This document shows positions 49,596 to 64,000 of a stretch of DNA of 64,000 bases, one piece after another. How positions within the stretch are numbered: the first letter of the stretch is position 1; every line of letters starts with the position of its first letter. The notes beneath the pieces are model-generated. The model was not told the DNA's origin, did no database searches, and worked only from the letters and a program-made list of their open reading frames with translations. The DNA is from an uncultured Sphingorhabdus sp. (lineage in GTDB: Bacteria; Pseudomonadota; Alphaproteobacteria; Sphingomonadales; Sphingomonadaceae), in assembly GCA_964597055.1 (NCBI GenBank), contig CAZQWC010000008.1, positions 121,603 to 185,602 of the forward strand, written 5' to 3'. A program made the translations under genes and the position numbers.

Positions 49596-50369
49596 TCAAA
49601 CAAAAAGCGCGACCGACTGCATGCCCGTCATCATCGGCTCGCCCCTGCTGTTCCAGACCGTCATATATTGGCTGCTCGCGCCATGCACCGCATGGTGGGT
49701 TTCGCTTTCGAGGAACCACCAGCCGTTTTCGGTATCGGGCGCATCGGTGAGCAGGTTGATCTGCCAGTTGATCGAGCTGATCATGCCTTCCTTCTTCATC
49801 AACCCCATCGTCGAAGGCGGCAGGGCATCGCCCATGCAGATCAAATTGGCCACAGGATCAAGGCCTTCACGCTCTTTCAAGCGATGCCAGTTGGCAAGAC
49901 GTGGCTTATCCATGCCAAGGATCAGCCGCTTTTCGGGATAATCCATATTGTGGGTAAAAAATTCGGGCGGGCCGCTGCGGGTTTTGCCATCTTCGGGGAT
50001 AGGCGGGAATTCCGGGCGGGGCAGGCCTTCATAGTCGATATGGCTTTCGCGGCGCGCCATGAAAACGAAGACGCAGCTCAGGCCGACCTCTTCGCCCACC
50101 GTAATTTCGCTCTTGATAAAGGCGCTGTTGCGGCCACGGCGCAGAACCTTGCTGTGGATCTCCACCTCGCCCGACAGCGGCCCCGAAAAGGCGATCTGCG
50201 CGGTCAACAGCGGCGGCAGATCCGGTGCGGCCAGCTTTGCCGACTGATAGGCCAATGCCGAACTCAAACCGCCATAGGCCGTCCGCCCCTGATGCCAGGT
50301 CGAGGGGATGGTGATTTTCTGGTCGGTCGTGTCAGCGCGGAACTGCGCGAGGATGTCTGCAAGGTTCAT
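49596..50369 (-). CDS. TesB-like acyl-CoA thioesterase (double hotdog)
   Basis: WHQGRTAYGGL, VLRRGRNSAF, CMGDALPP and GASSQYMTVW motifs. Confidence 0.88.
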   Translation of the reverse strand: MNLADILAQFRADTTDQKITIPSTWHQGRTAYGGLSSALAYQSAKLAAPDLPPLLTAQIAFSGPLSGEVEIHSKVLRRGRNSAFIKSEITVGEEVGLSCVFVFMARRESHIDYEGLPRPEFPPIPEDGKTRSGPPEFFTHNMDYPEKRLILGMDKPRLANWHRLKEREGLDPVANLICMGDALPPSTMGLMKKEGMISSINWQINLLTDAPDTENGWWFLESETHHAVHGASSQYMTVWNSRGEPMMTGMQSVALFV

Positions 50370-50420
50370 AACATCCGCTTATCGCGGGCATTGCCGTGCG
50401 ACAAGGTTGGAAGACAATAT

Positions 50421-50458
50421 GGGGTTCTCGTGACCAAACCGCAAAAAGTGCCGTTAAG
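50421..50458 (+). mobile_element. Tn3-family terminal inverted repeat (left end)
   Basis: 38 bp GGGGTTCTCGTGACCAAACCGCAAAAAGTGCCGTTAAG: starts GGGG and ends CGTTAAG like the Tn3 IR. Flanking 5-mer AATAT is the predicted target duplication. Confidence 0.8.
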
Positions 50459-50524
50459 CATGTGTTTGATATAATTGAATAAACAATAACAGAATTATCG
50501 CAACCAATTGAATCTGAACAAAAT

Positions 50525-51097
50525 TCAGATATTTGATCTTTCTTCCTGAACCGATTCGAGTGCTCGGTAGAGCGTGGCATGGTGGCATTTGAGGAGTTTG
50601 GCGGCTTCTCTGACCGACGTTCCCTCGTTCACCAAGCGACTTCCCAGCATAATTTGGTCTGCTGTCAGCTTCGGTGGTCGACCAAAACGGACCCCGCGCG
50701 CCTTTGCCGCGATACGACCAGAGCTTGTGCGCTGGTGGATGAGCGCGCGCTCGAATTCTGCGATCCCGGCAAAAACGGTCAACACCATTCGACCGGCGGG
50801 GGAAGTTGTGTCAGCCCAAGGCTCAGCCAATGATTTAAGGCCGGTGCCGTGCTCATTCAAACGTTCCGCAATTTCGAGAAGGTCGCGGGTAGAGCGTGCG
50901 AGGCGATCGAGTCGGGTGACAATGACCACATCTTCGGAGCGAATGTTATCGAGCAACCGGGCCAATTCGGGCCGATCTCGGCGTGCTCCTGAAATCTTCT
51001 CTTCAAAAATCCGCGTGCAGTCGGCAGCATTGAGTGCTGCCCTCTGGAGCGTGAGGTCCTGATCGTCCGTCGAGACGCGTGCATAGCCAATCAACAT
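50525..51097 (-). CDS. tnpR: Serine recombinase / Tn3-family resolvase
   Basis: MLIGYARVSTDDQ, VTRLDRLARS, DTTSPAGRM, AEFERALI, GVRFGRPPKL and C-terminal HTH. Confidence 0.93.
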   Translation of the reverse strand: MLIGYARVSTDDQDLTLQRAALNAADCTRIFEEKISGARRDRPELARLLDNIRSEDVVIVTRLDRLARSTRDLLEIAERLNEHGTGLKSLAEPWADTTSPAGRMVLTVFAGIAEFERALIHQRTSSGRIAAKARGVRFGRPPKLTADQIMLGSRLVNEGTSVREAAKLLKCHHATLYRALESVQEERSNI

Positions 51098-51210
51098 GTC
51101 GCATATATGTATCGAAACTAGAGGCTTTAGCAACAGATATTTGCGACACGCATTGATGCCATTATTCATGGCTCACCGACAGTGTCGCAGAAATTAGGAG
51201 TTATGCGACA
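51097..51210. promoter_or_regulatory. Putative res site (resolvase subsites)
   Basis: TGTCGCA (51097)...TGCGACA (51142) and TGTCGCA-N14-TGCGACA (51183-51210), overlapping the tnpR start. Confidence 0.7.
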
Positions 51211-51307
51211 GGCATGCCCCTAATTGAGGCGTATCGTAACGGCAGCAAAGTTGGGGAGTCCGGACAGGCGGCTTTCGGCTAGCTCATAGCCTGAAATGGA
51301 CATTCGT

Positions 51308-51667
51308 TCATCGCTCCGCGCTGGGCTGAGGTTTTAAGCTCGCCGTCCTCCACGCGCACACGGCAAGCCCAGCAAACAATAGCCCTCCGACAATGACCTG
51401 TGGTCCGGGAAGGACCGACCATGCAGCTGCAAAGAATCCAACCATCATCGCGTTTATGATCACCAAGACTGATCGACTTGCGCGATCCTGTGCGTTCATC
51501 GCAACCAGGTTTGCCGCTGCTCCAATTACAATGGCGAAACCGGTGCCAACGAACCACAAGGTGTCGGCATTCCACCTGCTATAGATCAACGTGGCCAATG
51601 CAATGTGCACCAGCCCAAGCAGGCCAGCAGCGACTACTAAGGCGATCGTAATTCGGCGTAGCGTCAT
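51308..51667 (-). CDS. Hypothetical 4-TM membrane protein (119 aa)
   Basis: Four hydrophobic segments; ATG overlaps the stop of the reconstructed upstream gene (ATGA). Confidence 0.75.
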   Translation of the reverse strand: MTLRRITIALVVAAGLLGLVHIALATLIYSRWNADTLWFVGTGFAIVIGAAANLVAMNAQDRASRSVLVIINAMMVGFFAAAWSVLPGPQVIVGGLLFAGLAVCAWRTASLKPQPSAER

Positions 51668-51696
51668 TTTGTGAGCCTTTTCCGTTGCTCGACCCA
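51664..51696 (-). pseudogene. Detached C-terminal stub (W-VEQRKRLTK-stop) of the membrane-protein gene interrupted at 63646
   Basis: In frame with ...IAIGVPAW at 63646 when the CCCA junctions are joined; its TGA overlaps the next ATG. Confidence 0.8.
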
Positions 51697-51762
51697 GAAG
51701 AGGAATCCAATAATTTCAGTATTTTATTGATATAAAAATGGAATCCCCGTTTGATTTTGGCG

Positions 51763-51782
51763 TTGCCCCAACGCCTTGCCCC
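51763..51782. repeat. Putative integrase arm-type sites, left end
   Basis: TTGCCCCAA (51763) and TTGCCCC (51776), 13 bp apart. Confidence 0.6.
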
Positions 51783-51815
51783 GGGACTATTTCGATTGAC
51801 TGGTTCGAGTACTAA

Positions 51816-52010
51816 GCAGCTTTAAAACCGGTTTCGAATCGCTTCGAATTTGCCATTTTCAATGCCAATGACGAGATGGAATTGGTAGCAGCGATGAACG
51901 GCCAAACCAATGTACTTAGCACGCACAATGTCCGCGACTTTCAAAGGCTGTAGAACGGCTCGGGCTTCGGGTATTGCGACTGGGGGGAGAGAGGCTCGAC
52001 CGGTCGGGGA
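51816..52010 (+). pseudogene. Degenerate PIN-domain toxin gene
   Basis: NANDEMELVAAMNGQTNVLSTHNVRDF-stop(51951), then shifted frame AVERLGLRVLRLG; resembles the PIN C-terminal motif DPxDxxVLxxAxxGxAxxLVTxNxRDF. Confidence 0.65.
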
Positions 52011-52267
52011 CGAGCTCTGATAGGTTCGAAAAGCTGCTATGCTGATCGTATTCAGCAGTTGCAGTGTTTTTGAACCCGAACCGATTCAGCTTTGCGCCAT
52101 TCTTATTGCTGTCCCGCTATTCTTAAATAACGCCGCTCAGTTTTAAGGTTTGTGACACAGCCATTAAAATAAAATGTTATTGGCAGCACAAGTACATCAT
52201 ATCTGGCTCGACGAGTGGTGTAACATGCACTAGCTAAGCATCTCAATAGCAGGGGAAAGAGGGAAGC

Positions 52268-55264
52268 GTGCCAGGCACATTTTACGAGCAGCCGATCCTT
52301 AACTCGCCTTACAGCGAGCCGCGCTACCATCACCCCTTGGATGATCACGGGCAGCCGCTTGACCAACCCGCAGTTGAAGGGCGTCGGACATCCAAGTTTA
52401 TCGTTCCCGTCCCGAAATCGCGAAAAGTGGCAGCAGCCGCGCAGGCTTCGCTCGACCTCGAAACCTATACACCCAATAGCCTGATTAACGAGATCAGAGG
52501 CTATGTCGATGCTTGGCGCAAGACACCAAACCCGGCAGATTGGGGAGTCACGCCAACTACGGCCCGGCTTTTGGACTATTGGCGCAATCACAATTTTTCA
52601 TCTGTTCGCCCCTTCTTTTGTCAGGTCGAAGCAGTCGAAACGATTATCTGGCTAACCGAAGTCGCGCCGAAGCGAGCAGCTACGAAGGGTCTGCTAGATC
52701 AAATCCAGAGAGCCAATGACGAGGCAAATCCGGCGCTATTCCGACTAGCCATGAAGATGGCGACCGGCAGCGGCAAAACAACGGTCATGGCGATGCTGAT
52801 CGCATGGCAGACGGTTAACGCCGTACGGCGCGATTCGAAGCTATTTAGCCGCGCCTTCCTGATCGTTGCGCCGGGGATCACCATCAAAGACCGCCTGCGC
52901 GTCCTGATGCCAAGCGCGCCCGATAATTATTACGAAGAGCGCGAGCTAGTTCCGCCTGAAATGCTGAACGAAGTGAAGCGTGCTGAGATTGTGATCACCA
53001 ATTATCACGCCTTTCAGCACCGCGAGACCGGCCCGACCGGCAAAGTCGCGAAAGGCCTGCTTCAGGGTAACGACCCTGAGCCGATCCGCACCACCGAAAG
53101 TGACGGCGAAATGCTGCGCCGGGCTTGTGGCCATCTTCTCAATCACAAAAACGTCAATGTCATCAATGATGAGGCGCACCACTGCTATCGCCACAAGACC
53201 GGCGGCGAAGAGGAAAAGCTGACCGGCGACGACAAGAAGGAAGCCGAGGCTAACGAGGAAGCTGCCCGGCTGTGGATCAACGGCATCGAGGCATTGAAGC
53301 GCAAAGTCGGAGTGCGTGCCGTCCTTGATCTATCCGCCACACCTTTCTTCTTACGTGGCTCGGGCTATCCCGAAGGCTTCCTCTTCCCGTGGGTCGTTTC
53401 GGATTTCAGCCTGATGGATGCGATTGAATGCGGTATTGTCAAACTGCCGCGCGTTCCGGTCTCTGACAATCTCCCACAGACAGAGACACTTGTTTACCGC
53501 GATTTATGGAAACATGTCGGTAAACACCTGCCCAAAAGTGCCGCTGCTGCTGGCAAACTTGACCCCTCCAGCCTGCCCAACGAGTTGAAGACCGCACTTT
53601 ACGCACTCTACAGCCACTACAAAGAAACCTTTGAACTGTGGGATCGTGAGGGCATCGACGTGCCCCCAGTTTTCATCGTGGTTTGCCAGAATACCGCCAT
53701 TTCCAAGTTAGTGTTTGAATGGATCGCTGGCTTTGAACGCGACTTGGGCGAGGATGGCAGTGATCGCGCACGATTTGAGATCGGCAATCTTGAACTATTC
53801 AGCAATTACGATCCCACAGGCGGACGTTTCCCGCGCCCCCGAACGCTCCTGATCGACTCCCGCCAGATCGAAGCGGGCGACGCGCTCGACAAAAGTTTCC
53901 GCGACATGGCCGAAAGCGAAATCGAGCAATTCAAGCGCGAACTGAACCAGCGCGATGGCGCGGGTAGCGGCGACAAGGTGAGCGATGGAGAACTGCTCCG
54001 CGAAGTGATGAACACTGTTGGGCGCAAGGGTAAGCTGGGCGAGCAAATCCGTTGCGTCGTTTCGGTCTCAATGCTGACCGAGGGATGGGATACCAACACC
54101 GTAACGCACATCCTGGGCGTCCGCGCGTTCGGCACGCAATTGCTGTGTGAACAGGTCGTTGGGCGTGGCCTGCGTCGGCAGTCCTACGATCTCGATCCCG
54201 AAACCGGCCTGTTCCCGGTTGAATATGCCGACATTATGGGCATCCCGTTCGACTTCTCAGGCAAGCCGCAGACGGCAACGCCAATCAAGCCGCGCCCCGT
54301 CACGCGCGTTCACGCGATCAAAGAGCGTAGCGAGCTTGAGATCATCTTCCCGCGTATCAGCGGCTACCGTAAGGAATTGCCAGAAGAGCGGCTTGAGGCA
54401 GAGTTTGACGAAGAGTCCAAGCTGATCATCACCACAGCCGATATTGGGCCGACATCTGTCTTAATGGAGGGCATTGTTGGCCAAAGCACGCTGATCACAA
54501 CGCAGGTGCTGGAAAGCCTTCGCCCGTCGGAAATCAGCTTCAATCTCGGCAAATATTTACTCAACAATCATTTCCGCGACAATGATGGCCTCGCCAAGCG
54601 GCACTTGTTCCCGCAAATTCAGCGGATTGCCCGGCGCTGGATCGATGGCGGTTATCTGGTTTGCGCAGGCGTGCCGATTGGGGCGATCCTCTATGAAGAC
54701 CAACTCGCCCGCGCCGCGCAGAAGATCAACATTGCGCTGTCCCGAGCGAGCGACAGCCCGGTGAAGGCGGTGCTTGATCCTTACAATCCCAAGGGATCGA
54801 CGCGATTTGTCAACTTCATCACCTCGAAGGCGTGCTGGACGACCGGGGCGCGGCCTCCCAAAAGCCATATCAGCCATGTCGTGCTCGATAGCAGCTGGGA
54901 GGAGCAGCTGGCAGGCGTGCTGGAAAACCATCCGCGCGTCATCGCCTATGCCAAGAACCAGGCATTGGGATTTGAAGTGCCTTATCTGGATGGCGCGGTC
55001 TTGCGCCGCTACGTCCCCGATTTTCTGGTGCGGCTTGATGTCGGTCAGGCCGAGCCTTTGAACCTTGTGCTGGAGGTGAAGGGCTATCGCGGCGAGGATG
55101 CCAAGCTCAAGGCTCAAACGATGCGCGACCTGTGGGTGCCCGGCGTCAACCAGATGGGCGGCTTTGGCCGGTGGGCGTTTGCGGAATTTAGCGATTGGGC
55201 GGTGATGGAAGAGGATTTCGCGGCGCTGGTTGAGCGGTTGATTGGGAGTACGGGGCATGAGTGA
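52268..55264 (+). CDS. res: Type III restriction endonuclease Res subunit (BPTD_3080-like, res-before-mod subfamily)
   Basis: KMATGSGKT, NDEAHH, SVSMLTEGWD and C-terminal YVPDF...LEVKG PD-(D/E)xK nuclease. Confidence 0.93.
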   Translation: MPGTFYEQPILNSPYSEPRYHHPLDDHGQPLDQPAVEGRRTSKFIVPVPKSRKVAAAAQASLDLETYTPNSLINEIRGYVDAWRKTPNPADWGVTPTTARLLDYWRNHNFSSVRPFFCQVEAVETIIWLTEVAPKRAATKGLLDQIQRANDEANPALFRLAMKMATGSGKTTVMAMLIAWQTVNAVRRDSKLFSRAFLIVAPGITIKDRLRVLMPSAPDNYYEERELVPPEMLNEVKRAEIVITNYHAFQHRETGPTGKVAKGLLQGNDPEPIRTTESDGEMLRRACGHLLNHKNVNVINDEAHHCYRHKTGGEEEKLTGDDKKEAEANEEAARLWINGIEALKRKVGVRAVLDLSATPFFLRGSGYPEGFLFPWVVSDFSLMDAIECGIVKLPRVPVSDNLPQTETLVYRDLWKHVGKHLPKSAAAAGKLDPSSLPNELKTALYALYSHYKETFELWDREGIDVPPVFIVVCQNTAISKLVFEWIAGFERDLGEDGSDRARFEIGNLELFSNYDPTGGRFPRPRTLLIDSRQIEAGDALDKSFRDMAESEIEQFKRELNQRDGAGSGDKVSDGELLREVMNTVGRKGKLGEQIRCVVSVSMLTEGWDTNTVTHILGVRAFGTQLLCEQVVGRGLRRQSYDLDPETGLFPVEYADIMGIPFDFSGKPQTATPIKPRPVTRVHAIKERSELEIIFPRISGYRKELPEERLEAEFDEESKLIITTADIGPTSVLMEGIVGQSTLITTQVLESLRPSEISFNLGKYLLNNHFRDNDGLAKRHLFPQIQRIARRWIDGGYLVCAGVPIGAILYEDQLARAAQKINIALSRASDSPVKAVLDPYNPKGSTRFVNFITSKACWTTGARPPKSHISHVVLDSSWEEQLAGVLENHPRVIAYAKNQALGFEVPYLDGAVLRRYVPDFLVRLDVGQAEPLNLVLEVKGYRGEDAKLKAQTMRDLWVPGVNQMGGFGRWAFAEFSDWAVMEEDFAALVERLIGSTGHE

Positions 55265-55265
55265 T

Positions 55266-55321
55266 GTACGATTTTCGTACGAAATTAATTGCGAAGTAGG
55301 ACATTACGTCCTATGTAAGCT
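55266..55321 (+). promoter_or_regulatory. Palindrome-rich internal promoter/operator region between res and NYN
   Basis: GTACGA-TTT-TCGTAC, TTTCGTACGAAA (55273-55284), TAGGAC-ATTAC-GTCCTA (55297-55313). Confidence 0.45.
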
Positions 55322-55329
55322 TCACATCT

Positions 55330-55394
55330 GCCCCTTGAGAGTAGGTTGGCCCGTTAATCGAGGGCCGTACCGAAATCTTGGGGCTTATTTTTTT
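55330..55394 (+). ncRNA. Structured RNA leader of the NYN gene, ending in a U-tract
   Basis: GCCCC..GAGA / TCTT-GGGGC outer stem, GGCCC/GGGCC inner hairpin, then TTATTTTTTT; 14 nt before the ATG. Confidence 0.6.
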
Positions 55395-55408
55395 CAGGGC
55401 CAGCGCAT

Positions 55409-56230
55409 ATGAATGGCGGCCCCATCCTTACCCGACAAATTGCAATCATGATCGACGGCGGTTTCTTTCTGCGCCGTGCGGAATCAATGGGTTTAATTCG
55501 GCGCATCGGTGATGTTGATACAATCGCCGCTCTGTTGCGGCGCATGTGCCGCCGTCATGTCCAGATGCTGACGGGGCAAGACGGCAAAAACTGGCACCGT
55601 CACATTTACCGCATATTTTATTATGACGCGCATCCCTATTCCGGCGTCGCCCACCATCCGCTTCACAATCAGCAATTCTTCTATGAAAAAAGCGACATGG
55701 CCGTATTCCGGCGCGCGCTGTTCGAACGATTGCGGCAAGAGCGCAACGTGGCGCTCCGCCTAGGCGAGGTTATCCGGCACGATGAATGGGTGATCCCCAC
55801 GCACAAGCTAAAGCCGCTTTTGCCTTCACGGGATTGGTTCGCCGGGATCGATTTTGACGCAGTGGACGATCAGGGCCGGATCACGCTTTCCGCCGAAGCA
55901 CTGGAAACGGCAAAGCGGCTGCAGGGCAAATGGCAGAATTTGCAGAACGACGATGTGTCACTAGATCTGCGTCAAAAGGGTGTTGATATGCGGATCGGGC
56001 TGGATATCGCTGCTCTCGCACTCAAAAGGTTCGTAAACACGATCATCCTTGTAACTGGCGACAGCGATTTTGTGCCTGCCGCCAAACTGGCCCGACGCGA
56101 AGGAATACAATTCATCCTCGATCCGCTTTGGCAACCGCGCAAGGTGGATGAATTGCTTGAACATATCGATGGCCTGCAATCCGGCCTCCCCAAACCCAGA
56201 CCACCCAAACCGGCAGGAAACCCCGCATAA
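55409..56230 (+). CDS. NYN-domain (LabA/DUF88, PIN-fold) ribonuclease
   Basis: IMIDGGFF, QKGVDMRIGLD and LVTGDSDFVPAAKLARREG motifs; stop overlaps the mod start (TAATG). Confidence 0.9.
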   Translation: MNGGPILTRQIAIMIDGGFFLRRAESMGLIRRIGDVDTIAALLRRMCRRHVQMLTGQDGKNWHRHIYRIFYYDAHPYSGVAHHPLHNQQFFYEKSDMAVFRRALFERLRQERNVALRLGEVIRHDEWVIPTHKLKPLLPSRDWFAGIDFDAVDDQGRITLSAEALETAKRLQGKWQNLQNDDVSLDLRQKGVDMRIGLDIAALALKRFVNTIILVTGDSDFVPAAKLARREGIQFILDPLWQPRKVDELLEHIDGLQSGLPKPRPPKPAGNPA

Positions 56231-59169
56231 TGGCCCGCGCCCCGAAATCGCCTAAATCCGTTGATGCGCTGAAGCATGATGCGGCATCGCGCCGAAATAT
56301 TCCTACAGCGGAGATGGAGAGTTTCTTCCTGCGGGAAGAGGATAATGCGCCGATGCCGCCGGTGGCTTATCCGCGCGCGCGGCCGTTGGCAGCGGGGGAG
56401 ACGCGGACGGAGGATGAGGTTTCCAGCCCCGAGCTGATCTGGAACGGCGCGAAGATTAAAATAACGCCCGCGCAGATGGAACAGCTTGCCACCACCGGCG
56501 AGCTGGAGCTGGGCGATGCGCAACTGGTGTGGCGGGGGAAGGATACGCAGGACTGGCAAGACCTGATCGTCAATGTGCCGCCGCTCTATATTCAGGAGAA
56601 GATCCACCCCAAGGCGATCATCGACGATCTGAAACGCCGGGCGGCGCAGAACAAGGAGGCGGCCAGCGCCGCGCCTGATCTGTTCGCCGATTTCAACGGT
56701 GTGCCGCCGGATGCGCGCGCGGAATTTTACCAGCACGACCAGCACTGGTCGAACCGGATGATCCTGGGCGACAGCCTTCAGGTGATGGCCAGCCTGGCCG
56801 AGCGCGAATCCTTACGCGGTAAGGTGCAGTGCATCTATTTCGATCCGCCCTACGGGATCAAATTCAACAGCAATTGGCAGGTATCGACGCAAAGCCGCGA
56901 CGTGAAGGACGGCAAGCAGGCCGACATCAGCCGCGAGCCCGAACAGGTGAAGGCGTTCCGCGATACCTGGAAGGACGGCATCCACTCCTACCTCACCTAC
57001 CTCCGCGACCGCCTGACCGTGATGCGCGACCTGCTGACCGACAGCGGCAGTATTTTTGTGCAGATTGGCGATGAAAATGTGCATCGGGTGCGCGCGGTGA
57101 TGGACGAGGTGTTTGGGGAAGAGAATTTCCGCTCCTGCATTTACTTTGCCACCACAGGAGGCCTTGCGACGAATGGGTTAAGCCGCATCGGGGATTACGT
57201 TCTTTGGTTTTCGAGGTCGGATCAGCCCAAAATTCGCCCGCTCTTTGTCGAGAAGAGGGGCGCCGATGACGATACAAGTGCCTACAAAAGTATCGAATTG
57301 TTGGACGGGACGCGCCGTCGTCTCACCGTAGCCGAACAGCAAAACACCGAATTGCTACCGGAGGGATCGAAGGTATTCCGCATTAGCGATTTATGTGGTC
57401 AGGGTCCGCCTAATCAGCCGACACCTTTCGATTTTGATGGCATCACATACAATCCGACCAAGAGCAGCCATTGGAAGCCAAACTACCCGAACGGGATGCG
57501 CCGTTTAGCCCGTAGCCAGAGATTTTACGGCACCGGAAAAACTCTAAACTACGTCCGCTATTTCGAAGATTACGCCGTGTCTCCATTCAATGATGTATGG
57601 CTAGACACCGGTCACTCGGGTTTCGCCTACGATAAGCTCTATGTCGTGCAAACTGCAACAAAAGTCATCGAACGCTGCATCCTGATGGCGACCGATCCCG
57701 GCGATCTCGTTCTCGATCCCACCTGCGGCTCTGGCACTACTGCCTATGTCGCCGAGCAATGGGGGCGGCGCTGGATCACGATGGACACCAGCCGGGTCGC
57801 GCTTGCGCTGGCCCGCACCCGCATCATGGCGGCGCGATACCCTTGGTATTTGCTCGCCGACAGCAAGGAAGGCCGCGCCAAGGAAGCCGCGCTCACTCAG
57901 CGCGTGCCCGCCGAAACGCCCGTCCATCACGATATCCGCCAAGGCTTCGTCTATGAACGCGTGCCGCACATCACACTGAAAAGCATCGCCAACAATCCGC
58001 TGATCGATGAGATCTGGGAGAAGTGGCAGGCGGTGCTTGAACCACTGCGGGCGGCGTTGAATGCGGCCTGCGGCGAGACGTGGGAAGAATGGCAAATTCC
58101 GCGTGAATTGCCCGCGACCACTCCGCCATCTGCCGCCGATCCTCACGCCAAATGGTGGGAGGCGCGCATCGCCCGCCAGCAGGAAATCGACGCCAGCATC
58201 GCCGCGCGCGCCGATGTGGAATATCTTTATGACAAGCCCTATCAGGACAATGCCCGCGTCCGCGTCGCGGGGCCGTTCACCGTCGAAAGCCTCTCCCCCC
58301 ACCGCGTCCTTCCCGCCAGCGAAGAGGAGCTTATCGAAGAGGTTGAGGCTGCCGAGGGCAAACGCCGCCGCGTCACCGGCGATGCGGTGGACAGCGATTT
58401 CGTGCCCAATGTGCTCGATTACCTCAAATCCGAAGGCGTGAAGCAGCAGGACAAGGGCGACCGCATCACCTTTGAAAGCCTGTCCCCCTGGCCCGGCCAC
58501 TGGATTGGCGCGCAGGGCGTTTTCATGGAGGGCTCGGAAGGCCAGCAGGTGGAGCGCCGCGCGGCCATATTGATCGGGCCGGAATTCGGCACGCTGGGCC
58601 GCGCCGACCTCGTTGCCGCCGCGCGTGAGGCCGCCGATGCGCGCTTCGACCTCGTCATCGCCTGCGCTTTCAACTTTGACGCCCATTCATCAGAACTGGG
58701 CAGCCTCGGGTCTTTGCGCATCCTGAAGGCGCGCATCAACCCCGACATGCAAATGTCCGGCGAGCTGAAGAATACCGGACGTGGAAACATGTTCATCGTC
58801 TTTGGCGAACCCGATGTGGAGATATTGGACGACGGCGGCGAAACCATCCGCGTGAAGGTGAACGGCGTCGATGTGTTCGACCCCAATACCGGCGATATCC
58901 GCAGCAACGACACCAAGGGCATCGCCGCATGGTTCATCGACACCGACTATAACGAAGAAAGCTTTTTCGTCCGCCACGCCTATTTCCTCGGCGCGAACGA
59001 TCCGTACAAATCACTGAAAACTGCGTTGAGGGCGGAGATTGATGAGGAGGCGTGGGCTACGCTCTATGCCGACACCTCCCGCCCGTTCGAGCGGCCAGCA
59101 GGCGGCCGGATTGCGGTGAAGGTGATCAATCACTTCGGCGATGAAGTGATGAAGGTGTTTGGGGTTTAG
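56230..59169 (+). CDS. mod: Type III RM Mod subunit (beta-class N6-adenine methyltransferase, long C-terminal extension)
   Basis: YFDPPYG (motif IV), then a variable TRD, then VLDPTCGSGTT (motif I); directly linked to Res. Confidence 0.93.
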   Translation: MARAPKSPKSVDALKHDAASRRNIPTAEMESFFLREEDNAPMPPVAYPRARPLAAGETRTEDEVSSPELIWNGAKIKITPAQMEQLATTGELELGDAQLVWRGKDTQDWQDLIVNVPPLYIQEKIHPKAIIDDLKRRAAQNKEAASAAPDLFADFNGVPPDARAEFYQHDQHWSNRMILGDSLQVMASLAERESLRGKVQCIYFDPPYGIKFNSNWQVSTQSRDVKDGKQADISREPEQVKAFRDTWKDGIHSYLTYLRDRLTVMRDLLTDSGSIFVQIGDENVHRVRAVMDEVFGEENFRSCIYFATTGGLATNGLSRIGDYVLWFSRSDQPKIRPLFVEKRGADDDTSAYKSIELLDGTRRRLTVAEQQNTELLPEGSKVFRISDLCGQGPPNQPTPFDFDGITYNPTKSSHWKPNYPNGMRRLARSQRFYGTGKTLNYVRYFEDYAVSPFNDVWLDTGHSGFAYDKLYVVQTATKVIERCILMATDPGDLVLDPTCGSGTTAYVAEQWGRRWITMDTSRVALALARTRIMAARYPWYLLADSKEGRAKEAALTQRVPAETPVHHDIRQGFVYERVPHITLKSIANNPLIDEIWEKWQAVLEPLRAALNAACGETWEEWQIPRELPATTPPSAADPHAKWWEARIARQQEIDASIAARADVEYLYDKPYQDNARVRVAGPFTVESLSPHRVLPASEEELIEEVEAAEGKRRRVTGDAVDSDFVPNVLDYLKSEGVKQQDKGDRITFESLSPWPGHWIGAQGVFMEGSEGQQVERRAAILIGPEFGTLGRADLVAAAREAADARFDLVIACAFNFDAHSSELGSLGSLRILKARINPDMQMSGELKNTGRGNMFIVFGEPDVEILDDGGETIRVKVNGVDVFDPNTGDIRSNDTKGIAAWFIDTDYNEESFFVRHAYFLGANDPYKSLKTALRAEIDEEAWATLYADTSRPFERPAGGRIAVKVINHFGDEVMKVFGV

Positions 59170-59178
59170 GGGGAAATC

Positions 59179-59796
59179 ATGCCGAAGACAGTCGAGTGGT
59201 ATCCTAAAATTCGGAACCAAAGCCTCGCCCTTGCGGTGCGTGAGGCTGGCTTTGATCTAACAATGTTTGATGAATATTCGGAAGCAACACAGACCGAAAT
59301 TCGGAAACGCGCTATCAAAATTGTTCTCCGAAACATTGCAGAGGAATTTGAGAACGTCACTGGCAAGGAGCTATCCGACATACGCCAAGGTGTGTACGTC
59401 ATTTGTGTTTCTAGTCCTTTTACAATCGGATACGAGTCGGGATGTAGCGAGGTAATTTACATCGGCATCGGTAAGATCGCATCGCGATTGGAATCTCATT
59501 TCAACAAAAGTCTTTTCGATTTTATGATGAGCGTTGCAGGCGCAAATTTCGACTTTTATCTGACCGAGCCAAAAGGCTCTCCTGGTGATTTGTACTACAA
59601 GCACATCGAATATATGCTTCTCGAAAAGTTTTGGGATAAGCATGATTGCTATCCGCTCCTGAATACCAACGCAGGCAGTCGCAAAGAATTTGACGAAATA
59701 GGGAAGGGTTGGGACAAGCCGCTTAAGGCATCGGGTAAAAAGCCGATTTGGGAAATTCGCGCGACCAAACATTGCGAATTTGCAAAGTTGGATTGA
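59179..59796 (+). CDS. GIY-YIG-like nuclease
   Basis: GVYVI...VIYIGIG...RLESH...IEYMLLE...PLLN matches the GIY-YIG R/E/N catalytic layout; visibly AT-richer. Confidence 0.7.
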   Translation: MPKTVEWYPKIRNQSLALAVREAGFDLTMFDEYSEATQTEIRKRAIKIVLRNIAEEFENVTGKELSDIRQGVYVICVSSPFTIGYESGCSEVIYIGIGKIASRLESHFNKSLFDFMMSVAGANFDFYLTEPKGSPGDLYYKHIEYMLLEKFWDKHDCYPLLNTNAGSRKEFDEIGKGWDKPLKASGKKPIWEIRATKHCEFAKLD

Positions 59797-61866
59797 ATGA
59801 ACTTCCTCATCGCCGACACCTTCACAGCATCCTTCAACCGCCTGTCAGGGCAGGATCAGAAGGCGGTGAAAGCGAGCGTGTTCGACCTGCAAATGGACCC
59901 AACGGGCAACGGGCTACAACTTCACCGGATTGATCAATCAAAAGATGCAAACTTCTGGTCGGCGCGGGTCAACCGCGATGTCCGGCTGATCGTCCACAAA
60001 ACCACAAGCTCGATGCTGGTTGCCTATGTTGATCATCATGACAAGGCCTATGCCTGGGCCGAACGCCGCCGGATTGAAGCGCATCCGAAAACCGGTGCGA
60101 TCCAGATCGTCGAAGTGCGCGAGTTGGTGGAGGAGGTTGCGCCACCCGAAACCTTCGATTTTGTCTTTCCGGCACAAACCGCCCCCGCAGCATCCGAAAG
60201 CCTGCGCCACTTTGCCTCGCTCAGCGATGAAGCCTTGCTGTCTGTTGGAGTGCCCGCGGATTGGTTGGCCGATGTCCGCGCGGCAAGCGAGGACGATTTC
60301 TTCACCCTCGCCGATCATTTGCCCGCAGAGGCAGCTGAGGCCCTTCTGGAATATGCGGATACGGGCAAGCTTGTCGTGCCCGCGCCGGTAGCGGCAGCCG
60401 ATCCCTATACCCACCCCGATGCACTGCGCCGCATCCGCCCGATTGCCGATCAGGTAGAGCTCGAACAGGCGCTGGCCTTCCCTTGGGAAAAATGGGGCGT
60501 TTTTCTGCACCCTTCGCAACGCGAAATTGTGGAACGGAGTTATTCCGGGCCAGCTCGTGTCGCCGGTTCGGCGGGTACCGGCAAGACCGTGGTCGCATTG
60601 CATCGCGCGGTCAGGCTTGCACGCGAGAACCCCGCCGCGCGTGTGTTGCTGGCCAGCTTTTCACAACCGCTTGCAGATGCCTTGACCAAAAAGGTGTCAG
60701 TGCTTGCGCCCGATACCGGCACCGTCGTTCCACGTATTACGACTGCTTCATTCCAAGGTATCGCAGATCAACTGCATCAGCTTGAACATGGCGTGCGGCC
60801 ACGCATTGCGTCTGAACCTGTCCTTCGCGAGCGGATAGCAGAAGCGGCAAAGTCGTTTCAGATAACCGGCTTTTCAGAACGCTTCCTGCTTTCCGAATGG
60901 ACCAACGTGATCGACGCGTGGGGGATCAGGACGGAGGGCGAGTATGTAGATGTGCAGCGCATGGGTCGCAAAGCCAGGTTGGGGCCGAAACAACGCGAGC
61001 GCCTTTGGCCCGTCTTTGACGCTGTTCGCCAAGCCTTGGCCGCCGAACGTTACACCACTTGGCCAGTTGTATTTTCAGACTTGGCCCAGCGCTTTGAGAG
61101 CAAAACTGCCAAGCCGTTTGACCATATCCTGATCGATGAAGCACAGGACCTAGGACCGTCAGAACTGCGTTTTTTCGCGGCCATTGCGCCCGACCATTCA
61201 GACGCGCTTTTTCTGGCTGGCGATTTGGGGCAACGCATTTTCCAGCATCCTTTTTCGTGGAAAGGTTTGGGCGTCGATGTGCGCGGACGGTCCTTCACAT
61301 TGAAAGTTTGTTATCGAACATCGCAGGAAATCCGCCAAGCTGCTGACGGATTGTTACCCACTGTGTTGCGGGACGTCGACGGCAATGAGGATGAACGGCG
61401 CGGGACAATTTCGGTGTTCAGCGGACCGGAACCTTATGTAAAAATCAATGCTTCGACCGGCGAGGAATCGGCCATCGTACGTGCCTTCATCGAGAAGGCT
61501 CTGGCGGACGGGATCAGCGCGAATGAGATTGGTATTTTTGTTCGATCTCCTGCCCAGGTTGAACGCGCGCTCACATGCGTTTCAGACATTGCAGGTCGGG
61601 AACAGATTACGGTGAATGTAATGCATCTCGCTAAAGGCCTGGAGTTTCGCGCGGTCGCAATAATGGCCTGTGATGAGGGCATCCTCCCCTTGGATGAACG
61701 GGTCGCAGAAGCCACTGACGATGCGGAACTGGACGACGTTTACGAGACCGAGCGCCGGTTGCTATATGTTGCCTGTACGCGGGCTCGAGAACGATTGATG
61801 GTGAGTGGGGTCGCCCCCGGATCGGAATACCTCAACGATCTAAATTCGGCACAAAACACCGACTAG
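59797..61866 (+). CDS. SF1 UvrD-like helicase with N-terminal RelE/ParE-like domain
   Basis: GSAGTGKT, IDEAQD, GDLGQRI, YRTS, HLAKGLEF and LYVACTRA; N-terminal about 88 aa (FTASFNRL...FWSARVNRDVRLIVH...YVDHHD). Confidence 0.88.
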   Translation: MNFLIADTFTASFNRLSGQDQKAVKASVFDLQMDPTGNGLQLHRIDQSKDANFWSARVNRDVRLIVHKTTSSMLVAYVDHHDKAYAWAERRRIEAHPKTGAIQIVEVRELVEEVAPPETFDFVFPAQTAPAASESLRHFASLSDEALLSVGVPADWLADVRAASEDDFFTLADHLPAEAAEALLEYADTGKLVVPAPVAAADPYTHPDALRRIRPIADQVELEQALAFPWEKWGVFLHPSQREIVERSYSGPARVAGSAGTGKTVVALHRAVRLARENPAARVLLASFSQPLADALTKKVSVLAPDTGTVVPRITTASFQGIADQLHQLEHGVRPRIASEPVLRERIAEAAKSFQITGFSERFLLSEWTNVIDAWGIRTEGEYVDVQRMGRKARLGPKQRERLWPVFDAVRQALAAERYTTWPVVFSDLAQRFESKTAKPFDHILIDEAQDLGPSELRFFAAIAPDHSDALFLAGDLGQRIFQHPFSWKGLGVDVRGRSFTLKVCYRTSQEIRQAADGLLPTVLRDVDGNEDERRGTISVFSGPEPYVKINASTGEESAIVRAFIEKALADGISANEIGIFVRSPAQVERALTCVSDIAGREQITVNVMHLAKGLEFRAVAIMACDEGILPLDERVAEATDDAELDDVYETERRLLYVACTRARERLMVSGVAPGSEYLNDLNSAQNTD

Positions 61867-62160
61867 AAGCGACCGAAGTTTCGATGGTTATGAGCAGCAA
61901 ATGCTCGCGCAATTCAGCACGCGGCATATTCGCGCTTGCAATTCGAGACTGTTGACCGGATCGGGACCAGCAGCATGGAATAGGCTAGCACACCCTACAC
62001 ATTGAAATGTAGCGATTTTTGGCGGTTTTGTGCGGGTTTGCGAGGATGGCAGCTTTCAAGTTGAATCCAAGTCATTGACTTACATACAAGTCAACCTGCC
62101 ATAAGCACATGATTTATATTGATATATTTGGCGCTCAGGTCAAAAATTGGCGACTTGAAT

Positions 62161-63417
62161 TCAAATCACCCTAGGCCCCATCCGAGCAGTCCCTTTCCCA
62201 AGGTCCGGGCCTGGAAACTGTACCACTTCACCACCAGATCGAAGTTGATCTAGATAGTCGCTCCACCATTGATGCATCGCCACGCGTTCATCCCAATAGC
62301 GTCCCCGGTTGTATGTCGCGCGCACCGCGTTGCTATCCGCATGGGCCAGAGATCGTTCAATGGCATCGGGGTTCCACTTGCCGCTTTCGTTCAACAGCGT
62401 GGACGCCGTGGTGCGCCATCCGTGCGCTGTCATCTCGCTTGTTGTGTACCCCATCCGGCGCAGCGCCTGATTAATAGTGTTCTCGCTCATGGGCCGCAGC
62501 GATGTGTGAAATGCGGGAAATACGAAGCCGGTTGGGCCGGTCAGCGGATGCAAATCAGCGAGATACCCCATTACCTGTCGGGAGAGCGGAACCGAGTGAG
62601 GACGCCGCGCTTTCATCCTTCCTTGGGGGACAGTCCACACCGCCTTCTCGAAGTCAAATTCGTGCCATTCGGAAAGGCGCAGCTCGCCAGGTCGGGACAT
62701 TAGATGGGGCGCGATTTGCATCGCGATGCGAGTGATCGCCGAACCCGAATAAACATCGATAGCGCGCAGCAACTCGCCCACCGCCTTGGGCTCTATAATG
62801 GCTGCATGGTGCGTGACCTTGGGCGTTATTAGCGCGCCGGAAAGAACTACGGCGGGATCGTGTTCCGCCCTCGCCGTTGCAATTGCATAACGGAAAACCC
62901 GACTGGCAAATGAACGGCAACGTCGGGCGGTCTCATACTTGCCTTTAGCTTCCAATCGGCGCAGCGCAGCAAGCACTTCGATGGGTCGAATATCCGCAAC
63001 TGGCATCTTTGCGATGGGCTCCAGCTGCTGCAACAGCCAAACCGCTTTGGTGACGGTCACTTCCGCCTTTTGTTCGGCAATCATCTTGCGCTGGATATAT
63101 TCGCGCGCGACATCGCCAAACACATTGGCCGCGCTGATTGAAGCAATCAGGCGCTTGCGTTGACGCTCTGCGGAGGGATCAATGCCATCGTCCAACAGCC
63201 GCCGCGCGTCTTCTTGTTTGCGGCGGGCAGCAGAGAGCGACACCGCTGGATAGCGCCCGAGCGAGAACCGCTTTTCCTTGCCGCGAAAAGTATATTTGTA
63301 CCGCCACAGTTTGGAGCCGTTCGGCTCGACCTCGATATATAGTCCGCGCTGATCGACTTTCTTGTATCGTTTGTCGGCGGGCTTGAGCGAGCGAAGCATG
63401 GCATCAGTAAGCGGCAC
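62161..63417 (-). CDS. int: Tyrosine integrase, P4-like with N-terminal arm-DNA-binding domain
   Basis: GLYIEVEPNGSKLWRYKY, SRPGELR, HGWRTTAST, LAHAD and YNRGRY motifs; GTG start with SD AGGAG. Confidence 0.93.
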   Translation of the reverse strand: MPLTDAMLRSLKPADKRYKKVDQRGLYIEVEPNGSKLWRYKYTFRGKEKRFSLGRYPAVSLSAARRKQEDARRLLDDGIDPSAERQRKRLIASISAANVFGDVAREYIQRKMIAEQKAEVTVTKAVWLLQQLEPIAKMPVADIRPIEVLAALRRLEAKGKYETARRCRSFASRVFRYAIATARAEHDPAVVLSGALITPKVTHHAAIIEPKAVGELLRAIDVYSGSAITRIAMQIAPHLMSRPGELRLSEWHEFDFEKAVWTVPQGRMKARRPHSVPLSRQVMGYLADLHPLTGPTGFVFPAFHTSLRPMSENTINQALRRMGYTTSEMTAHGWRTTASTLLNESGKWNPDAIERSLAHADSNAVRATYNRGRYWDERVAMHQWWSDYLDQLRSGGEVVQFPGPDLGKGTARMGPRVI

Positions 63418-63475
63418 AATCGAACTCCTTCTTGGTCCGGGGTCGATCACGTATCGCCACAGCAAATTTATGTGC

Positions 63476-63526
63476 TGGGGCAACCGGTTCGGGTCACCTC
63501 AAACTGCCCCAAATTTCTGCCCCAAA
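63476..63526. repeat. Putative integrase arm-type sites, right end
   Basis: CTGCCCCAAA at 63504 and 63517 (13 bp apart) plus inverted TGGGGCAA at 63476. Confidence 0.6.
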
Positions 63527-64000
63527 ATCACATTGGAAGCACTGGAACAAATGTGAACAACGCCAGACAGCGAAGTGCCATAAATGGCAGATTTCTGCCG
63601 TTTTGTCGAGATACAATGAGATGTACTAAGAAGAACAAATGGTGCCCAAGCCGGAACCCCAATCGCAATCATCATGGCCAGCAAGAGGATGGCGACGTAC
63701 TCAATTGCAATCGCCCTGTAGAAGTGGGCGAATGCTTGGGGAGGCAGCAAATGATCGATGCCGATAGCGACGAAGCCAGACACGACAATTACCGGGGTAG
63801 CCAATAGGACTGCGGCGCGCAGCCCTCTCACCGCAGTGAAAAACGCACCCATGGCAATTGCGGCTGCCGCAAAATAGGCGAGCATCGAAGGTATGGTAGC
63901 ACCAGAGGCCGAAAGTTGTCCGGCCAGCCGGATATGGAGAACACTCCATGCCACGGCACAGAGAACCAACGTCCAGCGAGCGGCATTGAGAATGGTCGTT
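63499..64000 (-). CDS. Membrane protein, 5' end outside window, interrupted after Trp at 63646 and now ending in 48 element-derived residues
   Basis: Frame is open to the window edge; hydrophobic helices up to IAIGVPAW, then non-TM sequence to the stop at 63499. Confidence 0.75.
   Translation of the reverse strand, partial: TTILNAARWTLVLCAVAWSVLHIRLAGQLSASGATIPSMLAYFAAAAIAMGAFFTAVRGLRAAVLLATPVIVVSGFVAIGIDHLLPPQAFAHFYRAIAIEYVAILLLAMMIAIGVPAWAPFVLLSTSHCISTKRQKSAIYGTSLSGVVHICSSASNVILGQKFGAV

What the first reader, a model, noticed from the sequence alone, without database searches (positions are those of the whole stretch)
51693..63648. Exact ends of a 12-kb integrative defence islet: tRNA-type attP inserted off-target through a 4-bp core
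Seen: the left junction is GCTCGA-CCCA-GAAGAGGAATCCAA and the right is CAAATGGTG-CCCA-AGCCGGAACC. Circularising gives TGGTGCCCAGAAGAGGA, whose reverse complement TCCTCTTCTGGGCACCA reads as a tRNA 3' end (tRNA-Leu, from recall). The outer halves rebuild a protein-coding sequence, not a tRNA. Established: P4-like integrases target tRNA 3' ends and usually need 6-8 bp of overlap identity. Here only CCCA is shared. Inference: a secondary-site integration, and I see no excisionase gene in the element.
Basis: partly seen in the sequence, partly recalled or inferred. Interest (0 to 1): 0.8.

Follow-up and report, generated by a model that had tools for sequence, protein, structure and literature searches.

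The report
Defence island inserted off its tRNA target
A 12-kb mobile island carrying a restriction-modification system, whose integrase family normally inserts into a leucine tRNA gene, has instead landed in the end of an ordinary membrane-protein gene using only four shared bases; the phenomenon is known, but this is a cleanly documented natural case.

Summary
The observation and the interpretation both hold. The junction strings are at the stated coordinates (CCCA at 51693-51696 and 63645-63648).

- **attP:** Joining the two island ends gives TCCTCTTCTGGGCACCA. This matches exactly the last 17 nt of the Sphingomonadales tRNA-Leu(CAG) gene. That gene lies 200-300 bp upstream of about 60 of 80 related integrases (60-76% identical).
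- **Empty site:** Contigs from six sequencing runs skip exactly 11,952 bp with 4 ambiguous bases. Three fetched loci at 83-97% identity read GGCT-TGGG-TCGAG, as predicted.
- **Target:** The target is the last 10 codons of a 189-aa membrane-protein gene in a PadR operon on a sphingomonad chromosome.
- **attB versus attP:** Apart from TGGG they match at 0 of the 10 neighbouring positions, with 11 mismatches over the 17-nt register.
- **Element:** The integrase is intact, both attP arms look intact, and no excisionase was detected. The cargo is a BPTD_3080-family restriction-modification cassette plus a UvrD-like helicase.

Secondary-site integration of tRNA-targeting elements is well known (lambda, SXT, SGI1, and ICEBs1 with up to 12 of 17 mismatches). 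I therefore class this as a new member of a known kind: well supported and of moderate interest.

The parts
51693..51696 (.). Left copy of the 4-bp crossover identity CCCA (TGGG in integrase orientation). This is the int-distal junction, P-O-B'.
   Evidence: Skip joints 51692->63645 with 'both=4'. The BLAST pieces of L088 and L090 overlap by exactly 4 nt.
63645..63648 (.). Right copy of CCCA. This is the int-proximal junction, B-O-P'.
51697..51704 (-). GAAGAGGA, reverse complement TCCTCTTC. This is the part of the attP core derived from the tRNA T-stem and acceptor stem, left at the int-distal end.
   Evidence: Exact match to tRNA-Leu(CAG) in L008-L028.
63640..63644 (-). TGGTG, reverse complement CACCA. 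This is the tRNA discriminator plus CCA part of the attP core, left at the int-proximal end.
51697..51810 (-). attP P arm (int-distal). It holds a pseudo-T-loop (TTGGATT) and two TGCCCC repeats 13 nt apart, at 51764-51769 and 51777-51782. These are candidate arm-type sites.
   Evidence: motif enrichment; a contig of run X31 matches 51697-51810 and is preceded by the reverse complement of a tRNA 3' end.
63418..63644 (-). attP P' arm, between the core and the int start. It holds a conserved 28-nt palindrome-containing block at 63582-63609, TGCCCC repeats at 63505-63510 and 63518-63523, and an inverted copy at 63477-63482.
62161..63417 (-). P4-type tyrosine integrase, 418 aa from the GTG at 63417, which has AGGAG 7 nt upstream. 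The mechanical ORF from the TTG at 63483 is 440 aa.
   Evidence: Pfam Arm-DNA-bind_3 + Phage_int_M + Phage_integrase. The 418-aa product is on record. Catalytic R, K, HxxR, H and Y are conserved.
52268..55264 (+). BPTD_3080-family restriction endonuclease, 998 aa (ResIII helicase domain).
   Evidence: NCBIfam NF046055, 1248.6 bits against a cutoff of 800. Pfam ResIII.
55409..56230 (+). NYN-domain protein, 273 aa. It occupies the variable middle position of the cassette.
   Evidence: Pfam NYN. DUF3883 or a hypothetical protein sits at the same position on plasmids.
56230..59169 (+). Type III-class N6/N4 DNA methyltransferase, 979 aa.
   Evidence: PADLOC MTase_III PDLC03632, full length, 1200 bits. 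Pfam N6_N4_Mtase.
59179..59796 (+). 205-aa protein with no family match. Its stop abuts the start of the helicase gene.
   Evidence: No hit in Pfam, NCBIfam or PADLOC.
59797..61866 (+). UvrD/GajB-like superfamily-1 helicase, 689 aa, with about 230 uncharacterised N-terminal residues.
   Evidence: Pfam UvrD-helicase and UvrD_C. PADLOC GajB-like.
63649..64000 (-). Body of the interrupted 189-aa membrane-protein gene, which runs off the window. In the filled state it reads into the island and ends at 63499 with a 48-aa foreign tail.
51664..51692 (-). Displaced 3' end of the interrupted gene (codons VEQRKRLTK plus the stop). The stop overlaps the ATG of the next gene.
51308..51667 (-). Downstream 119-aa membrane-protein gene of the same operon. 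The insertion separates it from its upstream partner by 12 kb.
   Evidence: Operon order PadR, 189 aa, about 115-119 aa in L088 and L090.

Best explanation
This is an 11,952-bp integrative island. It consists of a P4-type tyrosine integrase, an attP site, and a five-gene BPTD_3080-type restriction-modification plus UvrD-helicase cassette. The natural target of its lineage is the 3' end of tRNA-Leu(CAG).

Its circular form recombined with a chromosomal pseudo-attB inside the last 10 codons of a 189-aa membrane-protein gene in a PadR operon. I infer that the integrase cut attP at its usual place, in the acceptor-stem part of the tRNA-derived core. Strands were exchanged with a target that shares only TGGG.

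The likely mechanism is inferred, not shown:
- TGGG lies next to one cleavage site of a 6-8-bp overlap region.
- The first strand swap used this homology.
- The heterologous remainder was carried as a heteroduplex, or as a stalled Holliday junction, and was resolved by replication or by host enzymes.

The product has hybrid sites with mismatched cores: B-TGGG-CACCA... at the int-proximal end and ...TCCTCTTC-TGGG-B' at the int-distal end. By analogy with ICEBs1 secondary-site insertions, I expect it to excise poorly or not at all. That would explain why one identical junction is found in many wastewater, sludge and biofilm samples, and why the element was found nowhere else.
For: Shown:
- The junction sequences are as described.
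- The rebuilt attP carries the exact 17-nt 3' end of tRNA-Leu(CAG), followed by the P'-arm start TTTGTTCTTC that the closest relatives share.
- About 60 of 80 related integrases lie 200-300 bp downstream of tRNA-Leu(CAG) on the same strand. Those without a full tRNA beside them still keep at least 15 nt of a tRNA 3' end, and some are tandem arrays.
- The nearest relative, L084, is a decayed copy at tRNA-Leu(CAG).
- The empty site is seen as a skip joint 51692->63645 with 4 ambiguous bases in runs X16, X9, X31, X33 and X12, and in X45 as an empty-site contig whose unmatched end is the left flank. It is also seen as real sequence in L088, L089 and L090.
- Intact homologues end GVPxWVEQ....
- The integrase is full length and its catalytic residues are conserved.
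- Both arms keep conserved or repeated motifs.
- The break in the element falls within the 17-nt core of an 11,952-bp circle, a chance of about 0.0014.

Precedent:
- ICEBs1, whose primary site is also a tRNA-Leu gene, inserts at sites with up to 10-12 of 17 mismatches. Its heteroduplex is resolved by replication, and excision from the most divergent sites is undetectable (PMC3715440).
Against: - No circular form and no copy of this exact element at tRNA-Leu were found. The claim that the canonical site is tRNA-Leu therefore rests on relatives and on the attP sequence, not on this element itself.
- attB is a poorer match to attP than most of the other 359 TGGG sites in the 52-kb background: 0 of 10 flanking matches against a mean of 2.45. 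Some of those sites have 8-9-nt core matches. Simple homology therefore does not explain the choice of site.
- The cleavage positions and the length of the overlap region of this integrase are unknown.
- Filled and empty alleles coexist in runs X16 and X45. This could mean either strain mixture or ongoing excision.
Confidence: 0.88

Rival explanations
1. Integrase-independent illegitimate recombination. A circular or linear copy of the island joined the chromosome by microhomology-mediated end joining or replication slippage at a 4-bp microhomology.
For: Only 4 bp are shared and the flanks show no resemblance at all. This is the signature of microhomology-mediated joining. No excisionase was detected and no circle was seen.
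Against: The element's break point falls inside the tRNA-derived 17-nt attP core, about 220 nt upstream of int. That is where the integrase is expected to cut, and the chance of hitting it at random on the circle is about 17/11,952. The insertion is also conservative: no base is lost or gained at either junction and the 4 bp are present once at each end. That is typical of site-specific recombination and unusual for end joining.
Confidence: 0.06
2. The membrane-protein gene end is a genuine, evolved alternative primary attB for an integrase whose specificity has changed.
For: The identical insertion is present in samples from at least six studies, so it is stable and widespread.
Against: attP still carries a perfect tRNA-Leu 17-mer, and attB matches it at only 6 of 17 positions. 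An element adapted to a new site would be expected to share its core with that site. Among the 80 relatives, none has a non-tRNA junction. The distribution fits one event followed by clonal spread, because every junction is identical.
Confidence: 0.03
3. The 12-kb segment is ancestral and the 'empty sites' are precise deletions, or the junction is an assembly chimera.
For: None specific. It is considered because the window's source is a metagenome-type assembly.
Against: The empty state occurs in relatives down to 83% nucleotide identity. There the ORF is intact and the ATGA stop/start overlap with the next gene is preserved, so the empty state is ancestral. The filled junctions were assembled independently in many runs, including a 19.8-kb contig at 100% identity.
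Confidence: 0.01

Closest known systems
ICEBs1 insertions at secondary attachment sites in Bacillus subtilis (Menard and Grossman 2013, PMC3715440)
   Same: Both have a tyrosine-recombinase element whose primary site is the 3' part of a tRNA-Leu gene. Both show off-target insertion into protein-coding genes. The target differs from the 17-bp core at up to 10-12 positions there and at 11 of 17 here. In both, the left and right ends carry different crossover sequences.
   Different: ICEBs1 is a conjugative element of Firmicutes with an unrelated Int/Xis pair. Most of its secondary insertions were recovered in the laboratory after the primary site had been deleted. Here the event is natural, in an alphaproteobacterium, in a 12-kb island with no conjugation genes and no detected Xis. 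Its excision behaviour has not been measured.
P4-type (Arm-DNA-bind_3/DUF4102) integrase genomic islands at tRNA 3' ends
   Same: The integrase domain architecture matches. int lies about 220 nt downstream of the core and in the same orientation as the tRNA. attP contains the tRNA 3' end, so a canonical insertion would regenerate the gene. Relatives form tandem arrays at the tRNA.
   Different: This copy is not at a tRNA gene and has no 15-17-nt direct repeat. Only 4 bp are duplicated.
Secondary attachment sites of phage lambda, SXT (pntB) and SGI1 (sodB-purR) (discussed in PMC2297512)
   Same: In each case a site-specific tyrosine recombinase uses a degenerate attB with partial identity in the overlap region.
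   Different: Those secondary sites usually keep most of the overlap region and core. SGI1's second attB has a single substitution in the putative 7-bp overlap. Here nothing beyond 4 bp is kept.
BPTD_3080-family restriction-modification cassettes on alphaproteobacterial plasmids (for example Sphingomonas aliaeris NZ_CP061036.1 and Rhizobium leguminosarum NZ_CP071401.1)
   Same: The gene order is the same: REase, a variable small gene, a methyltransferase of about 975 aa, one or more small genes, and a UvrD-like helicase of about 685 aa. The REase is 73-75% identical.
   Different: Here the cassette is carried by a minimal integrase island rather than a plasmid, and the variable gene is an NYN-domain protein.

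Membership tests
P4-type tRNA-targeting integrase island | Tyrosine integrase with an N-terminal Arm-DNA-bind_3 (DUF4102) domain, a central domain and a catalytic domain | tested here: met
   Pfam PF13356, PF22022 and PF00589. NCBIfam PRK09692 integrase domain.
P4-type tRNA-targeting integrase island | Catalytic residues R, K, HxxR, H/W and Y present, and the gene full length | tested here: met
   Alignment with 10 relatives shows RPGELR, RMKxRxPH, HGWR, LAH and TYNRG all conserved.
P4-type tRNA-targeting integrase island | attP carries the 3' end of the target tRNA next to int | tested here: met
   17 of 17 nt identical to the tRNA-Leu(CAG) 3' end, with the core 222 nt upstream of the int start.
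P4-type tRNA-targeting integrase island | Integrated at a tRNA gene and flanked by a direct repeat of the tRNA 3' end (15 nt or more in this family) | tested here: not met
   No tRNA in the window. The flanks rebuild a protein-coding gene, and the repeat is 4 bp.
Secondary-site (off-target) site-specific integration | An unoccupied target in relatives that matches the joined flanks exactly, with no loss or gain of bases | tested here: met
   Skip joint of 11,952 bp with 4 ambiguous bases in five runs, plus an empty-site contig in X45. L088, L089 and L090.
Secondary-site (off-target) site-specific integration | The element's break point lies within its normal attP core, and the primary site of the lineage is known | tested here: met
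   The break is at TGGG inside the tRNA-derived 17-mer. About 60 of 80 relatives sit at tRNA-Leu(CAG).
Secondary-site (off-target) site-specific integration | Excision from the secondary site is reduced | not testable with these tools
   Only assembled contigs were available. No circle joint was seen in X1, X5, X16 or X25, but contigs drop rare forms.
Type III-class R-M (BPTD_3080 family) | REase matches the curated equivalog model above its cutoff, and is paired with an N6/N4 methyltransferase | tested here: met
   NF046055 at 1248.6 bits against a cutoff of 800. PADLOC MTase_III over the full length.
Type III-class R-M (BPTD_3080 family) | Demonstrated restriction and modification activity | not testable with these tools
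Integrative conjugative or mobilisable element (ICE/IME) | Relaxase, type IV secretion or coupling-protein genes | tested here: not met
   None of the six genes has such a domain. No room is left in the 12 kb.
Gabija defence system | GajA (ATPase-TOPRIM) together with a GajB helicase | tested here: not met
   Only a GajB-like UvrD helicase matches, and no GajA model was hit.

The most novel reading that the evidence does not exclude
This P4-type integrase lineage may need homology only in the 3-4 bases next to one cleavage site and tolerate complete heterology elsewhere in the core, as IntDOT and CTnBST do. In that case tRNA-targeting islands could seed themselves at essentially any TGGG when the opportunity arises. 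This copy might then still be excisable, which would explain why filled and empty alleles coexist on identical flanks in X16 and X45.
Probability: 0.15. Interest if true: 0.55.

Novelty: new member of a known kind. Interest (0 to 1): 0.35.

Why it matters
This is a natural, base-pair-resolved example of a tRNA-targeting island landing off target. The empty site, the filled site and the lineage's canonical site are all documented.

The event pins the effective crossover of this sphingomonad integrase family to the TGGG of the acceptor stem. Canonical insertions cannot show this, because there the identity runs for 15-17 nt.

It also shows how a small restriction-modification island can become fixed in a chromosome away from the usual tRNA hot spot, damaging a host operon in the process. 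Island-finding tools that rely on tRNA anchors and long direct repeats would miss it.

It does not change the current understanding of site-specific recombination.

Tried and rejected
- **Longer or imperfect direct repeats at the ends:** none found.
- **Exact-protein look-up of the flanking 119-aa gene to find empty sites:** all 7 contigs carried the island.
- **Exact look-up of the 440-aa integrase ORF:** not on record. This was resolved by using the GTG start, which gives 418 aa.
- **Hidden similarity between attB and attP as an explanation for site choice:** rejected. attB scores below average among the 359 TGGG sites. A gapped resemblance (ATTGG...TTCC) seen by eye is in a different register, and I did not pursue it.
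- **Other off-target events among the 80 relatives:** none. Every locus without an adjacent full tRNA still keeps at least 15 nt of a tRNA 3' end.
- **Distal ends of the relatives' islands:** they lie beyond the 10-kb flank, so P arms could not be compared.
- **The same cargo next to related integrases:** absent.
- **Two metagenome scans for this element's canonical attL, or for attP/attR:** 0 hits.
- **Circle joints in contigs:** none.
- **Excisionase among small ORFs:** no Pfam hit.
- **Promoter and terminator scans at the ends:** nothing above shuffled expectation, except a hairpin after the int stop.
Full report
**1. Observation**

GCTCGA-CCCA-GAAGAGG has its CCCA at 51693-51696, and AATGGTG-CCCA-AGCCGG has its CCCA at 63645-63648. 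No longer direct or imperfect repeat brackets the segment. ARAGORN finds no tRNA gene anywhere in the 64 kb.

Removing 51697-63648 joins the flanks into one continuous minus-strand reading frame ending ...GVPAWVEQRKRLTK*. Its TGA overlaps the ATG of the next gene (ATGA), the usual signature of translationally coupled operon genes.

**2. What the segment contains**

Between the junctions lie five plus-strand genes and one minus-strand gene.

| Coordinates | Strand | Product | Evidence |
|---|---|---|---|
| 52268-55264 | + | 998-aa BPTD_3080-family restriction endonuclease with a ResIII helicase domain | NCBIfam equivalog, 1248.6 bits against a cutoff of 800 |
| 55409-56230 | + | 273-aa NYN-domain protein | |
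| 56230-59169 | + | 979-aa Type III-class methyltransferase | full-length match to a PADLOC model |
| 59179-59796 | + | 205-aa protein with no family match | |
| 59797-61866 | + | 689-aa UvrD/GajB-like helicase | |
| 62161-63417 | - | P4-type tyrosine integrase (Arm-DNA-bind_3, central and catalytic domains) | |

The mechanical integrase ORF starts at a TTG at 63483. The GTG at 63417 has AGGAG 7 nt upstream and gives MPLTDAM..., and that 418-aa product is the one on record in public assemblies. The protein aligns end to end with its relatives, and the catalytic R, K, HxxR, H and Y are conserved.

The same cassette order recurs on Sphingomonas and Rhizobium plasmids among other defence genes: endonuclease, variable small gene, methyltransferase, small gene(s), UvrD-like helicase. 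'Defence islet' is therefore a fair description. No relaxase or secretion genes are present.

**3. The attP reading**

In integrase orientation the circularised junction reads ...AAATTATTGGATTCCTCTTC-TGGG-CACCATTTGTTCTTCTTAG....

A scan of one genome per bacterial species found 80 loci encoding integrases 47-90% identical, most of them 60-76% identical. Nearly all are Sphingomonadales.
- In about 60 of the 80, a tRNA-Leu(CAG) gene lies 200-300 bp upstream of int on the same strand.
- That tRNA ends ...GGTTCGAGTCCTCTTCTGGGCACCA. Its last 17 nt are identical to the rebuilt junction.
- The TTTGTTCTTC that follows CCA is shared with the closest relatives.
- Relatives without a complete tRNA beside int still have 15-22 nt of a tRNA 3' end there. 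Three of them have the full tRNA 4.5-8.6 kb upstream, so they are tandem arrays.
- The nearest relative by sequence, L084, is a truncated integrase remnant at tRNA-Leu(CAG).

The window's int-proximal junction keeps only 9 nt of the tRNA end (TGGGCACCA). It is the only non-tRNA junction among the 81.

Both arms look intact.
- The P' arm keeps a 28-nt block containing a palindrome (63582-63609) that is 100% conserved in many relatives.
- Each arm has a pair of GGGGCA motifs 13 nt apart, where about 0.07 per 200 nt would be expected. I propose these as arm-type sites. This is an inference.

**4. The empty site**

Contigs of public runs were laid on 50000-64000.

| Run | What was seen |
|---|---|
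| X16, X9, X31, X33, X12 | A joint from 51692 to 63645 that skips 11,952 bp, with 4 bases fitting either side |
| X45 | An empty-site contig matching from 63645, whose preceding unmatched end is the left flank (...TTGCTCGA) |
| X16 (at 99% likeness or more) | The empty joint at depth 12, plus island contigs at depth 9-10 that break about 30 nt from each junction, as a de Bruijn graph does when two alleles share flanks |
| X45 | Both forms |
| X1, X5, X25 | Only the filled form |
| X42 | A contig spanning the right junction in the filled form (island-to-flank, 100% identity) |

A protein search with the rebuilt C-terminal fragment found intact 189-aa homologues ending GVPxWVEQ.... The DNA of three of them reads ...GGTTCCGGCT-TGGG-TCGAGCAACGG... 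(L088 and L089 at 97% identity, L090 at 83%). Their matches to the window's two flanks overlap by exactly the 4 nt.

The target operon is a PadR regulator, the 189-aa membrane protein and a 115-119-aa membrane protein. The surrounding window is chromosomal: dnaN, rlmN, tldD, nadB.

The insertion replaces the last 9 residues of the 189-aa protein with a 48-residue island-encoded tail. It also separates the downstream gene from its partner by 12 kb. I derived both points from the sequence.

**5. Why this site?**

Apart from TGGG, attB and attP agree at 0 of the 10 neighbouring positions and at 6 of the 17 positions of the tRNA-derived register. The 52-kb background has 359 other TGGG sites, whose mean is 2.45 of 10 flanking matches. 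Several have longer core matches: TCTGGGCA three times and TGGGCACCA once. The site was therefore not chosen by best identity, and I have no explanation for the choice beyond chance.

Two things argue for an integrase-catalysed event and against microhomology-mediated joining. The insertion is conservative, and the break falls inside the 17-nt core of a 12-kb circle.

The observed ends are equally consistent with two 7-bp overlaps: TGGGCAC (phage side) against TGGGTCG (host side), or TTCTGGG against GCTTGGG. In either case one replication lineage of the heteroduplex has been fixed. The data cannot distinguish the two.

**6. Comparison with what is known**

Secondary-site integration is long established for lambda, SXT and SGI1 (PMC2297512) and has been studied most closely for ICEBs1, whose primary site is also a tRNA-Leu gene. 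In ICEBs1:
- secondary sites differ from the 17-bp attB at 2-12 positions;
- mismatched crossover regions are resolved by replication into unlike left and right ends;
- excision from the most divergent sites is below detection (PMC3715440).

The present case fits that pattern, with 11 of 17 mismatches. It differs in being a natural event, in an alphaproteobacterial P4-type island that has no conjugation genes and no detectable excisionase.

By analogy I expect the island to be largely stuck. Three results fit this:
- every sample shows the one identical junction;
- no circle joint was seen in contigs;
- this element was not found at a tRNA or anywhere else.

None of this is proof. Contigs drop rare forms, and the coexistence of the two alleles could reflect either strain mixture or excision.

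**7. Verdict**

The phenomenon is a known kind, and this is a new and well-resolved instance.

Its specific value is threefold:
- it locates the effective crossover of this integrase family at the acceptor-stem TGGG;
- it illustrates how little target identity can suffice;
- it shows that a defence island can sit away from tRNA hot spots, without the repeats that island finders look for.

Noticed in passing
window 51764-51769, 51777-51782, 63505-63510, 63518-63523 and 63477-63482: There are pairs of TGCCCC (GGGGCA in int orientation) 13 nt apart on both attP arms, plus one inverted copy near int. Most relatives carry a TGGCCC-type tandem pair at the same distance from CCA. These are candidate arm-type sites that may co-vary with integrase lineage.
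   Followed up: partly
window 63582-63609: A 28-nt block, TCGACAAAACGGCAGAAATCTGCCATTT (int orientation), contains the palindrome GGCAGA-AA-TCTGCC. It is 100% conserved in the P' arm of many integrase relatives that are only 65-70% identical. It may be a binding site or operator of unknown partner.
   Followed up: partly
window 50525-51250: A serine recombinase (resolvase/invertase family) lies next to the target operon. Synteny with the empty-site loci and with the X31 contig stops at about 51240-51250. Contigs of X16 and X20 that carry the filled junction have a divergent stretch at 51104-51193, with 27 substitutions and 4 indels. This may be a second variable or mobile boundary.
   Followed up: no
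L084 9700-10650: The nearest relative of the element is 90% identical over the integrase N-terminal half and 80% over the P' arm. It is a truncated integrase remnant sitting at a tRNA-Leu(CAG) gene in another alphaproteobacterial MAG.
   Followed up: partly
L013, L028, L087: These loci have tandem arrays. A full tRNA lies 4.5-8.6 kb upstream of a second copy of the tRNA 3' end, and that second copy precedes the integrase.
   Followed up: partly
run X31 ('organism A'), contig laid on window 51697-51810: A 4.4-kb contig matches the island's P arm with 17 mismatches. It is preceded by ...AAAAATGGTGCCG, the reverse complement of a tRNA 3' end. This suggests a related island at its canonical site in that organism.
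   Followed up: no
window 55409-56230; L097 12012-12980; L098 11987-12910: The gene between the endonuclease and the methyltransferase of the BPTD_3080 cassette varies. It is an NYN-domain protein here, DUF3883 in Sphingomonas aliaeris and a hypothetical protein in Rhizobium. It may be an exchangeable accessory or effector module.
   Followed up: no
window 59797-60500: The first 230 or so residues of the UvrD-like helicase, and the whole translationally abutting 205-aa protein upstream of it, match no family in Pfam, NCBIfam or PADLOC.
   Followed up: no
L031: A contig labelled as a Prosthecochloris vibrioformis MAG carries a sphingomonad-type integrase with a degenerate tRNA-Leu end. This is probably a binning contaminant.
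   Followed up: no
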